The notes beneath the pieces are model-generated. The model was not told the DNA's origin. It saw only the letters and a list, made by a program, of their open reading frames with translations, and did no database searches. 64,000 nucleotides of DNA from Minisyncoccota bacterium. GTDB taxonomy: Bacteria > Patescibacteriota > Minisyncoccia > UBA6257 > 2-01-FULL-56-20. Of the stretch, positions 3,658 to 5,375 are shown in pieces. Made by a program: the position numbers and the translations under genes. The DNA lies in contig DATAXS010000004.1 of NCBI GenBank assembly GCA_036266715.1, forward strand, positions 889-64,888, read 5' to 3'. Numbering within the stretch: the first letter of the stretch is position 1; the number at the start of each line of letters is the position of its first letter.

Positions 3658-4401
3658 CTATTCTTCTTTTGTGCTGCGTACTTTTGCCGCGAGGAATGTG
3701 GCTATTTTATCGTCGCGATCGATATAGATAAGGATGCGGCGCAAGAATTCCCTGAGGCCCTTTTGAAGCGTTTCTTGCGGGGCGTTTTTTAAGGACGCCG
3801 GCCATTCAAAATGAGAAACCAATTTTTCGTAGTGCGGTGAGCGTTCTTTTAATAATTCCTCCGCCGAAACAGAGTCGGCAAGTTCAATCTCCAATCCATG
3901 CTTTTTAAGGATGTTCTCAAAAAGCTGGCGCGCCCTCGGAAGATGATATTCGTTGGTTTCCAAAAGAATTTTTTTGATATCTTCCTGGTCCAGCAGGGCA
4001 AGCACATTCTCAATGCCTTCGGAAGTATTTACGGATGTCCCTTCCGTGAGGATGGCATTTTCAGGAATACCATGGGTGAGCAGGTAGTGTTTCATTACCT
4101 CTGCGATGCTCGTATCCGTAGGGAGATCTTTTTGATGGCCGCTCCCGCTTATGATTATCTTTTTTACTTTGCCCTTTTCAAAAAGTTCCAACGCGCCGAT
4201 GGCCCTCATTTTTGATTCAAGCGACGGGACTGCGTTTCCCTCCTTCACCTCAAACCATTCCCCGAAAACCACGACCGCGTCCGCGTCGGGAATGGTTTCG
4301 AGTGCCTCCTCCGTTTCCCGACCGTTTTCCATTTGTTCGGGATCGTGTGGTATTGGCCCTTGTTCAAACTTTCTCGGAGGCATAGCGATATTATATACCA
4401 A
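3658..4401 (-). CDS. DUF218 / YdcF-ElyC-SanA family protein
   Basis: The GSGHQ-containing central region resembles the DUF218 fold. Start is MVYNIAMPPRK at 4401. Confidence 0.55.
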   Translation of the reverse strand: MVYNIAMPPRKFEQGPIPHDPEQMENGRETEEALETIPDADAVVVFGEWFEVKEGNAVPSLESKMRAIGALELFEKGKVKKIIISGSGHQKDLPTDTSIAEVMKHYLLTHGIPENAILTEGTSVNTSEGIENVLALLDQEDIKKILLETNEYHLPRARQLFENILKKHGLEIELADSVSAEELLKERSPHYEKLVSHFEWPASLKNAPQETLQKGLREFLRRILIYIDRDDKIATFLAAKVRSTKEE

Positions 4402-4410
4402 TTTCCTGCG

Positions 4411-4687
4411 GGTGTGCCCTCGCGAGGAATTTCACTGCTCGGCCGCGCAACGCGGCCTGCGCGTGCGGCACCCACGGTGCCGCACTGTCGCCGTAAGAAC
4501 GGCGACACTCCTCCACGGGGAAACTGCGTTTCCCCGACCCCCTTCCTTGTTCAATTCCTCCCCAAAAAACACAAGCATCTTCCTCTGCATTCCAAAGGCG
4601 TCTCGGAGGCACGAAGGTGCCGAGAGAGAGCGGCCATGCCAGCAGGCATGGACCGCGTCCTTTGGAATGCAGAGGAAGATGCTTGTG
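4411..4687 (-). mobile_element. Element A, about 275 bp, inserted at the tRNA-Arg 3' end. It consists of a 29-bp perfect hairpin (4570-4598 / 4659-4687) with a 60-nt structured loop, a conserved core (4508-4560), three small hairpins (4441-4497) and a direct repeat of the tRNA 3' end (4411-4435)
   Basis: The order, when read in the tRNA sense, matches the element at 14447-14726. Core identity spans more than 40 nt and includes GGGGAAACNNNGTTTCCCC. The terminal sequence AATTCCTCGCGAGGGCA duplicates the tRNA-Arg T-loop/acceptor 3' end. Confidence 0.7.
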
Positions 4688-4757
4688 CCCTCGCGAGGAA
4701 TTGAACCTCGATCGACTCGTTAGGAGTGAGCCGTTCTATCCGTTGAACTACGAGGGC
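4686..4757 (-). tRNA. tRNA-Arg (anticodon CCT)
   Basis: Manual fold of the minus strand: acceptor GCCCTCG/CGAGGGC, D-arm GTTC..GAAC, anticodon loop CTCCTAA, T-arm CGAGG-TTCAATT-CCTCG, discriminator A. No CCA is encoded. Confidence 0.8.
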
Positions 4758-4839
4758 GTTCGGACTACACTAATATGTGACCGGTACTCGGGTACTATAG
4801 GCGATTGACGGAAAGGTCGCAATACTTTATATCATATAC

Positions 4840-5203: not shown

Positions 5204-5289
5204 GGAGGGGTCGGATAGTGGTTCATTCCACCGCACTTGAAATGCGGCGCCCCGAAAGGGGCTCGTGAGTTCGAATCTCACCCCCTCCG
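5204..5289 (+). tRNA. tRNA-Ser (anticodon TGA), type II with a long variable arm
   Basis: Acceptor GGAGGGG/CCCCTCC, anticodon loop CTTGAAA, 17-nt variable arm CGCCCCGAAAGGGGCTC, T-arm GTGAG-TTCGAAT-CTCAC. Confidence 0.75.
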
Positions 5290-5375
5290 CGTCAAGGTTG
5301 ACGGAATTGATAAGAGCAAGGTTCTAATTGATTATTCTCGCTACTCAGTGCTATTGTTTGTCCATGATCTATAGG

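What the first reader, a model, noticed from the sequence alone, without database searches (positions are those of the whole stretch)
4411..4757. Non-coding element of about 275 bp inserted at the 3' end of tRNA-Arg(CCT), with a 29-bp perfect hairpin and a duplicated tRNA 3' end
Read in the tRNA sense direction, the tRNA 3' terminus runs directly into a 29-bp perfect hairpin (4570-4598 / 4659-4687; the arm overlaps the last tRNA nucleotides) with a 60-nt structured loop. Next comes a conserved 45-nt core (4508-4560) containing the mini-hairpin GGGGAAAC-TGC-GTTTCCCC and an antisense copy of the tRNA T-loop (ttcaattcctc). Then three small GC hairpins (4441-4497). The element ends with the 17-nt direct repeat AATTCCTCGCGAGGGCA (4411-4435) of the tRNA-Arg T-loop/acceptor 3' end, only about 10 bp from the start codon of the YdcF-like gene. 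A duplicated tRNA 3' end is the classic scar of site-specific integration into a tRNA gene, yet the element has no coding capacity. It could be a non-autonomous integrative element of MITE size, or a tRNA-linked structured ncRNA. The two overlapping ORFs in the supplied track (4391-4612 minus and 4333-4704 plus) are artefacts of this element.
Basis: seen in the sequence. Interest (0 to 1): 0.8.

Follow-up and report, generated by a model that had tools for sequence, protein, structure and literature searches.

The report
Hairpin insertion element tailing tRNA genes
The 275-bp stretch after tRNA-Arg belongs to an uncatalogued family of small protein-less, hairpin-rich elements found across several bacterial phyla and in at least one archaeon, and each tRNA-linked copy carries a sequence antisense to its host tRNA's T-loop plus a duplicate of that tRNA's 3' end, a layout no known mobile element or RNA family explains.

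Summary
Downstream of tRNA-Arg(CCT) lie, in order:
- a 29-bp perfect hairpin;
- a 12-nt antisense copy of the T-loop;
- a conserved core;
- three hairpins;
- a perfect 19-bp repeat of the tRNA 3' end.

A second copy follows tRNA-Glu(CTC) at 14447-14726. It has the same core, but its antisense segment and repeat match tRNA-Glu.

Collection scans found relatives in Patescibacteria, Omnitrophota, Nitrospirota, Bacillota and DPANN archaea. Nothing matched in Rfam, phage or plasmid collections, or the literature.

At 11 tRNA sites the order is tRNA, terminator-like hairpin, anti-T, core, perfect 15-64-nt copy of the tRNA 3' part. The same rule holds at protein-gene ends (rpsI, fusA, one other ORF). 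The rule is target segment X, an inverted copy of the start of X, the core, then a direct copy of X.

Orthologous loci show full, truncated and empty states. The P3 helix covaries, and G-U pairs outnumber A-C pairs, so the tRNA-sense strand folds. No integrase, transposase or recurrent neighbouring protein was found.

Best reading (about 0.5): a non-autonomous, strand-specific insertion element with long, variable target duplication and a target-templated closing stem. Mechanism and enzymes are unknown.

Main rival: a co-transcribed tRNA-trailer RNA switch.

The parts
4794..4822 (-). Promoter-like site (TTGCGA-17-TATAGT) upstream of tRNA-Arg. It is the likely start of any tRNA-plus-element transcript.
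   Evidence: This is a consensus match only.
4685..4757 (-). tRNA-Arg(CCT), complete, with no encoded CCA.
4684..4702 (-). X: the proximal copy of the 19-nt repeat (sense AATTCCTCGCGAGGGCACA). It covers T-loop A57 through the discriminator plus 2 nt, and is part of the functional tRNA.
   Evidence: (D1)
4570..4687 (-). Terminator-like long hairpin with 29-bp perfect arms (4659-4687 and 4570-4598) and a 60-nt loop (4599-4658). The base of the hairpin pairs with the last tRNA nucleotides. The loop carries motifs shared with the Glu copy (CTCTCTCTCGGC, GCCTCCGAGACG).
   Evidence: (I1)
4561..4569 (-). U-rich linker (sense UUUUUUGGG). It lies opposite the unpaired acceptor 3' strand when the hairpin extends.
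4549..4560 (-). anti-T: sense GAGGAATTGAAC, the exact complement of tRNA-Arg G53-C64 (T-loop plus the T-stem 3' strand).
   Evidence: (I3)
4536..4548 (-). S1: conserved purine-rich strand, AAGGAAGGGGGTC.
4517..4535 (-). P1 hairpin, GGGGAAAC-GCA-GTTTCCCC. The loop sequence is free in relatives, and the stem is replaced by GGGAGGGGC/GCCCCTCCC in L139.
4508..4516 (-). S2: conserved purine-rich strand, GTGGAGGAG (family consensus GTGTAGGAAA).
4486..4507 (-). Variable hairpin V (TGTCGCCG-TTCTTA-CGGCGACA). It is absent from the Glu copy.
4463..4485 (-). P3 hairpin with the conserved tip ACC-GNG-GGT. The outer pairs covary across the family.
   Evidence: (I5)
4435..4462 (-). P4 hairpin block, GCGCAGGCCGCGTTGCGCGGCCGAGCAG. 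It matches the Glu copy at 26 of 28 positions.
4413..4431 (-). X': the distal perfect 19-nt copy of the tRNA-Arg 3' part. It is preceded by GTGA in place of GTTC. Its T-part can pair with anti-T to close the core.
14376..14453 (+). tRNA-Glu(CTC) with encoded CCA, host of the second copy.
14447..14726 (+). Second copy of the element:
- hairpin arms 14447-14474 and 14564-14591 (28 bp) with an 89-nt loop;
- U-rich linker 14592-14602;
- anti-T GGGATTCGAAC, 14603-14613;
- S1, 14614-14626;
- P1, 14627-14645;
- P3, 14660-14680;
- P4, 14682-14709;
- X' GTTCGAATCCCGATGGCG, 14709-14726, identical to 14430-14447.

Best explanation
The segment is one of two copies in this window of a small (about 150-290 nt), protein-less, strand-specific insertion element.

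Order of parts, read in the sense of the upstream gene:
1. a terminator-like hairpin that starts on the last nucleotides of the host gene;
2. a U-rich linker;
3. an 'anti' segment complementary to the first 8-13 nt of a host segment X (here the T-loop and T-stem 3' strand);
4. a conserved core: purine-rich strands S1, S2 and S3 separating hairpins P1, an optional V, P3 and P4;
5. X', a direct copy of X (here the tRNA from the T-loop to its 3' end).

Shown:
- The architecture, its recurrence at many different tRNAs, and three protein-gene ends.
- Anti matches the local target at each site.
- The upstream gene always stays intact.
- X' is perfect at tRNA sites and decays at one of the protein-gene sites (rpsI).
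- Orthologous sites are full, truncated or empty.
- The two window copies share identical 39-nt and near-identical 28-nt blocks.
- The tRNA-sense strand folds.

Inferred:
- The element is, or recently was, mobile DNA that inserts at gene ends.
- Insertion copies a stretch of the target in both orientations. That would produce a long, variable 'target duplication' (15-64 nt) and a closing stem around the core.
- This probably runs through a single-stranded intermediate, using host or trans-acting enzymes that recognise the conserved P1, P3 and S1 core.
- The flanking repeats then allow precise loss, tandem amplification and partial deletion.

The T-loop would be a favoured target because it is the most repeated conserved sequence in the genome, and because duplication of the 3' part leaves the tRNA functional.
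For: Anatomy and significance.

Family:
- 95 genome loci carry the 19-mer. My estimate of the chance expectation is about 4. Most also have AAGGAAGGGG upstream.
- 31 metagenome loci show the extended core S1-P1-GTGTAGGAAA-P3-AGGAG.

Recurrent layout at 11 tRNA sites (Arg, Glu twice, Leu twice, Met, Lys, Thr, Gly, Gln, Pro):
- perfect repeats of 15-64 nt;
- anti-T exactly complementary over 10-12 nt to the cognate tRNA in 5 of them, and over 7-13 nt in all 11 when G-U is allowed.

Same rule at non-tRNA targets:
- fusA start: 62-nt duplication and a 13-nt anti segment;
- rpsI end and another ORF end.

Gain and loss:
- murF-tRNA-Glu locus: full in the window and L139, 5' remnant in L137, empty in L135, L136 and L138;
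- tRNA-Arg-ydcF locus: decayed in L130;
- fusA: single start in L141;
- tandem partial second unit in L105.

Copies elsewhere:
- Multi-copy in several MAGs, inside an ORF in frame (L018), and a convergent pair in L116.
- Co-oriented with the adjacent tRNA in every element-bearing tRNA-adjacent locus; the one opposite-strand case (L017) has only the hairpin and looks like a plain terminator.

Folding:
- P3 covaries: 6 of 9 pairs have double changes, 97% of cells are paired, and 0 of 500 shuffles reach this.
- G-U extends the pairing much more than A-C does.

No coding partner.
Against: - No transposase, integrase, reverse transcriptase or other candidate enzyme was found. No mechanism is known that yields an inverted plus a direct copy of the target.
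- No insertion event was caught between near-identical genomes. The 'empty' sites come from relatives at 72-90% protein identity, so loss cannot be told from gain.
- The conserved part is the interior and the variable part is the ends, the opposite of ordinary MITEs.
- The repeat at the Glu site stops 3 nt before the discriminator base (6 nt before the end of the encoded CCA), so it is not a simple staggered-cut duplication.
- The perfect identity of X' at all tRNA sites, together with the G-U bias, could instead reflect selection on an RNA function.
- Homology of the Bacillota, Nitrospirota and Omnitrophota relatives rests on S1 plus P1, and partly on P3-like hairpins, so the 'one family' claim across phyla is weaker than within Patescibacteria.
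Confidence: 0.5

Rival explanations
1. A cis-acting structured RNA co-transcribed with the tRNA, acting as a trailer 'switch'. In a read-through transcript, four segments can pair in two mutually exclusive ways. The segments are the tRNA 5' acceptor/T strand, X, anti-T and X'.
- State 1: a native cloverleaf, plus anti-T paired with X', which closes the core.
- State 2: X paired with anti-T, which extends the terminator hairpin, plus the tRNA 5' half paired with X'.

Such a switch could control tRNA 3'/5' processing, termination versus read-through into the downstream gene, or release of a core RNA that carries a tRNA-like 3' tail.
For: - The MFE of both full precursors uses the second state: the 5' acceptor pairs with the distal copy and the T-loop pairs with anti-T.
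- G-U is strongly preferred over A-C in anti-T:T-loop pairing.
- P3 covaries.
- The element is always co-oriented with the tRNA.
- X' is perfect at all 11 tRNA sites but diverged to about 70% identity at the rpsI site.
- In the upstream-type relatives, the element's 3' end (..GCGAC) abuts tRNA position +1 exactly. That fits a leader removed by RNase P.
- A promoter-like site lies upstream of tRNA-Arg, and there is none inside the element.
Against: - The hairpin plus U-tract between the tRNA and the core looks like an intrinsic terminator, so the core may be transcribed only rarely.
- The same element occurs antisense to fusA, inside an ORF, as convergent pairs and as multi-copy MITEs. That is typical of selfish DNA, not of a host regulator.
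- It is present, absent or truncated at orthologous tRNA loci, so it is dispensable.
- G-T pairs are also tolerated in folded single-stranded DNA.
Confidence: 0.27
2. A scar or miniature derivative (CIME-like) of tyrosine-integrase elements that integrate in the T-loop of tRNA genes. In this reading:
- the proximal tRNA 3' end and the terminator hairpin came in with the element (attL);
- X' is the displaced native end (attR);
- the core is a conserved arm of attP.
For: - Repeats run from the T-loop to a few nt past the tRNA end and are 15-26 nt long at most sites. That is the typical size and position of att repeats at tRNA genes (established knowledge of tRNA-integrating elements).
- The element supplies a terminator right after the restored tRNA.
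- At rpsI and another ORF end, the two copies encode slightly different C-termini. This resembles integrative elements that carry an alternative gene end.
Against: - There is no integrase among the 30 largest window ORFs, and no recurrent neighbouring protein at about 125 loci.
- The targets are at least 10 different tRNAs plus unrelated protein-gene sequences, with no common core sequence.
- The Glu repeat lacks the last tRNA nucleotides, so neither copy-plus-flank arrangement fits a simple crossover.
- An att model does not predict the antisense segment that matches each target.
- Upstream-of-tRNA and in-ORF copies have no such repeats.
- There is no match in the phage or plasmid collections.
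Confidence: 0.12
3. Not a mobile unit at all. In this reading, the local structures were produced by replication template switching (quasi-palindrome extension and slippage) around pre-existing terminator hairpins, with a conserved core kept for an unrelated reason.
For: - The hairpin arms at the same tRNA-Glu locus are unrelated in sequence in the window, L137 and L139, yet each is perfect over 24-29 bp. Templated palindrome correction would produce this.
- Tandem partial units and truncations end at microhomologies.
Against: - It does not explain how the same core arrived at dozens of unrelated loci, genomes and phyla.
- It does not explain why the inverted and direct copies always flank the core in the same order.
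Confidence: 0.06

Closest known systems
Integrative elements and cis-mobilizable elements (CIMEs) at tRNA genes (tyrosine integrase, T-loop sublocation)
   Same: - A direct repeat covers the T-loop to the 3' end of the tRNA and a few nt beyond.
- The tRNA stays intact.
- The element has no mobility genes of its own, as in CIMEs.
- Sites are present or absent among relatives.
   Different: - The size is 150-290 bp.
- No integrase is known for it.
- The repeats and an internal antisense segment are different at every site.
- Targets include protein-gene ends.
- The conserved part is an internal structured core, not an att core.
MITEs and REP/REPIN-type palindromic repeats (including Rickettsia palindromic elements, which insert in frame into genes)
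   Same: - Small, non-coding, hairpin-rich and multi-copy.
- Sometimes tolerated in frame inside ORFs (L018).
- The Bacillota relatives have about 40-bp terminal inverted repeats.
   Different: - The Patescibacteria copies have no constant terminal inverted repeats.
- The only 'terminal' pairing is between an internal segment and the duplicated target.
- The duplication is 15-64 nt and variable.
- The core is conserved across phyla and in archaea, whereas REP and MITE sequences are usually lineage-specific.
IS1634/IS1549-type insertion sequences (long, variable target duplications)
   Same: The target duplications are long and variable in length. This point is from my own knowledge and was not tested here.
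   Different: Those are autonomous DDE elements with terminal inverted repeats. Nothing of the sort was found here.
Guide-bearing mobile elements (IS110 bridge RNA; IS200/IS605 omega/reRNA; group I/II intron guide sequences)
   Same: A structured non-coding scaffold carries a segment complementary to the sequence at its insertion site. The scaffold's 3' end runs directly into target sequence.
   Different: - Those elements make no long target duplication.
- Their guide is constant for a constant target, or the intron interrupts the gene.
- Each has a dedicated protein or a known catalytic core.
- None of their Rfam models match.
Folded single-strand recombination sites (integron attC; CTX-phage attP hairpin)
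   Same: A stem formed by two inverted segments mimics a duplex site. In 3 of the 11 copies the closing stem reads ..GAAC / GTTC.., which resembles the AAC..GTT ends of attC.
   Different: The core is multi-branched rather than a single imperfect hairpin. The stem sequence is the local target, not a family consensus. No integrase was found. Target duplication occurs.

Membership tests
tRNA-integrating integrase element / CIME | Direct repeat equal to the tRNA 3' part flanking the element | tested here: met
   19 bp at the Arg copy, 18 bp at the Glu copy, and 15-64 bp at 9 further tRNA sites. All are perfect.
tRNA-integrating integrase element / CIME | A cognate integrase, in cis or elsewhere, with a constant att core shared by copies | tested here: not met
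   No integrase among the 30 largest window ORFs. No recurrent neighbouring protein family. The repeats share no common sequence across targets. Whole genomes were not available, so a distant trans-acting integrase is not excluded.
MITE | Constant terminal inverted repeats | tested here: not met
   The window and Patescibacteria copies have none: the ends differ between copies. The Bacillota relatives do have about 40-bp TIRs.
MITE | Short target-site duplication of fixed length | tested here: not met
   The duplications are 15-64 nt and variable.
MITE | Small, non-coding, multi-copy, with sites present or absent | tested here: met
   Only 2 copies occur in this 64-kb window.
REP/REPIN with RAYT | Single-copy RAYT (Y1 transposase) gene in the same genome | not testable with these tools
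   Only 64 kb of this genome and 1-14-kb loci of the others were available. None was seen in them.
IS200/IS605 PATE / omega-RNA, HEARO | Match to known scaffold RNA models; insertion without target duplication | tested here: not met
   No Rfam hit, even at E<=10 on the window copies and E<=1 on 8 related loci. Duplications are present.
IS110-type bridge-RNA element | Recombinase gene; guides for a constant target; no target duplication | tested here: not met
   No such gene was found. The guide-like segment differs at every site. Duplication is present.
Group I intron in tRNA (known in Patescibacteria, PMC13011429) | Group I catalytic core; the gene is interrupted and restored by splicing | tested here: not met
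   No RF00028 hit. The upstream tRNA is complete without splicing.
Small self-cleaving ribozymes (hammerhead, HDV-like, twister, pistol, hatchet) | Match to the family covariance model | tested here: not met
   None was listed at E<=10 on the window copies or at E<=1 on 8 related loci. Catalysis itself is not testable here.
Integron attC | A single imperfect hairpin with RYYYAAC / GTTRRRY ends and an integron integrase nearby | tested here: not met
   The core is a 3-4-way junction. The ends are the local target. No integrase was found.
Intrinsic terminator only | GC-rich hairpin followed by a U-tract, and nothing else conserved | tested here: inconclusive
   The first hairpin plus the U-rich linker fit this by eye at most sites. 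The scan tool did not call them because their loops exceed 8 nt. This reading does not account for the core or for X'.

The most novel reading that the evidence does not exclude
A protein-gene-less mobile element whose conserved folded core is recognised by host or trans-acting machinery that is widely shared across bacteria and archaea. At each insertion its 'guide' would be re-templated from the new target. The element would end up carrying both an antisense copy and a sense copy of the target, here the tRNA from the T-loop to its 3' end. It may cycle through a small circular or single-stranded intermediate made of the core plus the tRNA 3' piece. That would be a new class of mobile element, and a new way of using tRNA genes as safe harbours.
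Probability: 0.25. Interest if true: 0.95.

Novelty: new variant of a known kind. Interest (0 to 1): 0.8.

Why it matters
- Patescibacteria, DPANN archaea and Omnitrophota have tiny genomes in which non-coding DNA is scarce. A conserved, structured, repeated element that persists there, next to essential single-copy tRNA genes, needs an explanation.
- The layout does not correspond to integrase, transposase, intron or retroelement products as currently described. That layout is intact host gene, hairpin, antisense to the target, conserved core, then a sense copy of the target.
- If the element is mobile, it points to an unknown insertion chemistry or guide-copying step, possibly programmable.
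- If it is an RNA device, it would be a new kind of tRNA trailer or leader that competes with the tRNA's own helices.
- Either way, it gives annotators a reason to stop calling ORFs there. It also gives experimenters a compact 110-150-nt core to test.

Tried and rejected
- Rfam, at gathering and permissive thresholds, on both window copies and on 26 related loci: only tRNA and rRNA hits.
- Viral contig scans with two core patterns: 0 hits. Phage and plasmid BLAST: no match.
- Literature searches by topic and by sequence words: nothing relevant. The Patescibacteria tRNA group I intron paper (PMC13011429) concerns anticodon-loop introns, not this element.
- Search for a recurrent neighbouring protein by clustering ORFs within 3 kb of about 125 copies: only generic families, at inconsistent positions.
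- Pfam scan of 30 window ORFs for mobility genes: none.
- Cognate complementarity between upstream-type elements and their downstream tRNAs: absent.
- The idea that the hairpin-loop module is an inverted copy of the upstream-type 3' tail: borderline for the Arg copy, not significant for the Glu copy, so not relied on.
- Retro-copy of the mature tRNA, with a reverse-transcription stop at m1A58: rejected. The repeats contain genomic trailer nucleotides rather than CCA, and they start at variable T-loop positions.
- Simple staggered-cut duplication: rejected for the Glu copy, whose repeat ends inside the acceptor strand.
- Coding potential of the core: rejected. The reading frame is not conserved, and a TAG lies in the conserved GTGTAGG.
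Full report
**1. The observation**

tRNA-Arg(CCT) lies at 4757..4685 on the minus strand. A promoter-like site lies at 4822-4794. Read in tRNA sense, the next 270 nt contain the following:
- A 29-bp perfect hairpin (4659-4687 / 4570-4598) with a 60-nt loop. Its base includes the last tRNA nucleotides.
- UUUUUUGGG.
- GAGGAATTGAAC (4549-4560), the exact complement of tRNA positions G53-C64 (I3).
- AAGGAAGGGGGTC.
- The hairpin GGGGAAAC-GCA-GTTTCCCC (4517-4535).
- GTGGAGGAG.
- Three GC hairpins (4486-4507, 4463-4485, 4435-4462).
- After GTGA, a perfect 19-nt copy of AATTCCTCGCGAGGGCACA (4413-4431 = 4684-4702). It has two matches in the window against 0.07 expected with up to three mismatches allowed.

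The strand folds far better than shuffles. The tRNA plus element gives z = -11.9, and the element alone gives z = -6.1.

**2. A second copy, and what co-varies**

The same 39-nt block GAACAAGGAAGGGGGTCGGGGAAACGCAGTTTCCCCGTG and a 26/28-identical P4 block occur after tRNA-Glu(CTC), in the region 14447-14726. Several things differ there:
- The hairpin arms are unrelated in sequence but again perfect (28 bp).
- The antisense segment is GGGATTCGAAC, which matches the Glu T-loop.
- The terminal repeat is GTTCGAATCCCGATGGCG, which is Glu G53 onward.

So three parts of the element track the host tRNA, while the core is constant. A covariance model finds only these two copies in the window.

**3. The family**

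The 19-mer occurs in 95 loci of the species-representative genome set. My own estimate of the chance expectation is about 4. Most loci also carry AAGGAAGGGG a few to about 40 nt upstream. Hosts include Bacillota and Clostridia MAGs (many copies each), Nitrospirota, Omnitrophota, Patescibacteria, and DPANN archaea (Micrarchaeota, Iainarchaeum).

The L020 contig encodes a thermosome-like protein. That is my reading of the translated sequence, not a family search. On that basis it looks genuinely archaeal.

A metagenome scan with a Patescibacteria-type pattern gave 31 loci. These reveal a longer consensus, in order:
- S1, GGAAGGGGGTC;
- P1, with a free loop sequence;
- S2, GTGTAGGAAA;
- an optional hairpin;
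- P3, with the tip ACC-GNG-GGT;
- S3, AGGAGCG;
- further hairpins.

P3 covaries: 6 of 9 pairs have changes on both sides, 97% of cells are paired, and 0 of 500 shuffles reach this. In L139 the P1 stem is replaced by GGGAGGGGC/GCCCCTCCC. The apparent invariance of P1 is therefore partly an effect of my search pattern.

Nothing matches in Rfam 15, in viral contigs, or in phage or plasmid records. The literature searches also found nothing relevant.

**4. The layout rule**

Eleven tRNA-downstream copies were examined: Arg, Glu twice, Leu twice, Met, Lys, Thr, Gly, Gln and Pro. All have the same order:
1. a complete tRNA;
2. a hairpin whose base pairs with the last tRNA nucleotides, followed by a U-rich tract;
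3. a segment antisense to the T-loop;
4. the core;
5. a perfect copy of the tRNA 3' part.

Details of the copy:
- It starts at G53, R57 or T60.
- It is 15-64 nt long.
- It ends within -6..+8 nt of the ARAGORN-called tRNA 3' end in nine cases, and at the end of the terminator hairpin in the other two (L105, L123).

Details of the antisense segment:
- Exact complementarity to the cognate tRNA is 10-12 nt in five copies, well above non-cognate values. The exception is tRNAs that share a T-loop.
- With G-U allowed, it is 7-13 nt in all eleven.
- Allowing A-C instead barely extends the runs. This shows that the tRNA-sense strand is the one that folds.

The same rule holds away from tRNAs:
- In L120 and L140, the first 62 nt of fusA are duplicated around an element lying antisense to fusA. 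A 13-nt segment next to the core is complementary to the start of the duplicated block.
- In L112, the last codons of rpsI are duplicated. The distal copy has decayed to about 70% identity, while the antisense segment still pairs perfectly with the functional copy.
- L111 shows the same at another ORF end.

In general terms the order is [X][spacer/hairpin][inverted copy of the start of X][core][direct copy X']. The gene on the outside is always left intact.

Other family members look different:
- Some sit directly upstream of tRNAs, with their 3' end ..GCGAC abutting position +1. They show no cognate complementarity.
- Some lie in rRNA spacers.
- One lies in frame inside an NrdJ-like gene.
- One locus has a convergent pair.
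- In Bacillota they are about 190-bp MITEs with about 40-bp terminal inverted repeats.

**5. Gain, loss and decay**

I used neighbouring proteins to fetch orthologous loci.

The murF-tRNA-Glu site:
- carries a full element in the window and in L139;
- carries only the hairpin, the anti-T and the first G-run of S1 in L137;
- carries nothing in L135, L136 and L138.

The tRNA-Arg-ydcF site in L130 keeps a long hairpin and a degenerate anti-T/S1, but no core or repeat. L141 has a single fusA start. L105 has a tandem, partly deleted second unit.

The hairpin arms at the Glu site are unrelated in sequence in the three genomes, yet each is perfect. The two window copies resemble each other more than the window Glu copy resembles the L139 Glu copy. 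These facts fit a unit that moves or is homogenised within a genome and is lost by recombination between its repeats. They do not prove recent transposition, because the compared genomes are only 72-90% identical in the flanking proteins.

**6. What moves it**

Nothing was found. There is no ORF in the element. There is no integrase, transposase or reverse transcriptase among the 30 largest window ORFs. No protein family recurs next to about 125 copies.

**7. Interpretation**

I rate as most likely (about 0.5) a non-autonomous, strand-specific insertion element. Its insertion would copy part of the target in both orientations. That would give a long, variable duplication and a target-derived closing stem around a conserved folded core, which some trans-acting or host machinery recognises. 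The architecture, its generality and the site polymorphism are shown. Mobility, the single-stranded intermediate and target-templated synthesis are inferred.

The rivals, in order:
- **RNA switch (about 0.27).** The tRNA-linked copies act as RNA. In a read-through transcript, the tRNA 5' half, X, anti-T and X' can pair in two exclusive ways. The predicted MFE of both window precursors is the alternative state. The G-U bias and the perfect X' at tRNA sites favour this. The terminator-like hairpin in front of the core, the dispensability of the element and its non-tRNA contexts argue against it.
- **Integrase scar or CIME (about 0.12).** This explains the position and size of the repeats. It does not explain their site-specific sequences, the antisense segment, the Glu repeat that stops inside the acceptor strand, or the absence of any integrase.
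- **Template switching around terminators (about 0.06).** This explains perfect, fast-evolving arms, but not the spread of the core.

**8. Comparison with known systems**

The element behaves like a tRNA-site integrative element in one respect (the repeat restores the gene). It resembles a MITE or REP in another (small, hairpin-rich, repeated). It resembles guide-bearing elements in a third (an internal segment complementary to the insertion site). It fails defining tests for each, as listed in the membership table.

I therefore file it as a new variant of small non-autonomous elements. I give a real chance (about 0.25) that the mechanism is categorically new.

**9. Limits**

- The genome and metagenome DNA scans were capped at one each. 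Both used patterns containing the P1 stem, so the sampled family is biased toward that stem.
- Cross-phylum homology rests mainly on S1 plus P1.
- ARAGORN and Rfam do not call the archaeal tRNA-like gene in L020. Its identification is by eye, although the 17-nt repeat there is a tool result.
- No expression data exist.

Noticed in passing
window 14745-15010 and 15786-16050: Two similar modules of about 260 nt (roughly 70% of aligned columns identical). Each has these parts:
- a promoter-like TTGAC..TATTAT;
- a small hairpin RNA with a terminator;
- the conserved string TTTTCATTTTAGATAGTTTTAA;
- a 74-nt tRNA-like gene;
- the hairpin CGGCACGGCCGTGC.

ARAGORN calls the tRNA-like genes tRNA-Ser(CGA) and tRNA-Ser(TGA). 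They lack the long variable arm of real tRNA-Ser (a genuine 87-nt tRNA-Ser(TGA) is at 5204-5290). They also have a C-A mismatch or a 9-nt anticodon loop. The anticodon stems differ by compensatory changes. They sit among cell-wall genes (murF, ddl, murB), so they could be non-ribosomal or otherwise unusual tRNAs.
   Followed up: partly
window 15004-15762 (+): An Endonuclease/Exonuclease/Phosphatase-family gene lies between the two tRNA-like modules, just downstream of the tRNA-Glu element. A 253-aa gene occupies the same position in L139. No link to the element was shown.
   Followed up: no
L018 2800-2965: A copy of the element lies in frame, with no stop codon, inside an NrdJ-like ribonucleotide reductase ORF. 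It falls in a region that does not align to solved RNR structures. This resembles the in-frame palindromic elements of Rickettsia.
   Followed up: partly
L120 6088-6340 and L140 1290-1500: The first 20 codons and the start of fusA are duplicated around an antisense-oriented element. The upstream pseudo-start, which keeps the native 5' region, would open a short ORF of about 37 codons that ends inside the element. The real fusA follows. The str-operon neighbour rpsG, present in L141, is not upstream here.
   Followed up: partly
L020 560-920 (minus strand): An archaeal (Micrarchaeota) locus holds several features:
- an apparent multi-intron tRNA-like gene, not called by ARAGORN or Rfam, with a roughly 20-nt hairpin inserted in its T-loop;
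- a short element with the order S1-P3-P1 and a 17-nt repeat of the tRNA-like 3' end;
- a second, degenerate core 90 nt further on.
   Followed up: partly
L005 1640-2111; also L010, L038, L043: Omnitrophota tRNA genes (Phe, Met, Leu) are preceded by long structured leaders of about 300-450 nt. These are built from related modules, sometimes in tandem, and end in ..AGCGA(A/G)CGAC just before tRNA position +1.
   Followed up: partly
L014, L028, L033, L044, L058, L073 (one Bacillota MAG) and similar MAGs: A MITE of about 190 bp has about 40-bp terminal inverted repeats, each holding a terminator-like hairpin. Its interior carries the same AAGGAAGGGG plus GGGGAAAC-N3-GTTTCCCC motif. In a few copies the hairpin loop is inverted relative to the flanks.
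   Followed up: partly
window 4599-4658 and 14475-14563 (loops of the long hairpins): The two loops share the motifs CTCTCTCTCGGC and GCCTCCGAGACG. The reverse complement of the Arg loop weakly resembles the 3' tail (CTCGAG-hairpin-GAGAGAGAGCGG) of the upstream-of-tRNA elements. The similarity is borderline and is not significant for the Glu loop.
   Followed up: partly
L116 4600-5075: Two copies of the element face each other (convergent) in one intergenic region. Each starts with its own AT-rich hairpin.
   Followed up: no
window 14376-14453 versus 4685-4757: tRNA-Glu encodes its CCA end, while tRNA-Arg does not. The long hairpin of each element nevertheless pairs with whatever the last nucleotides are (GGTACCA and CACA).
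   Followed up: no
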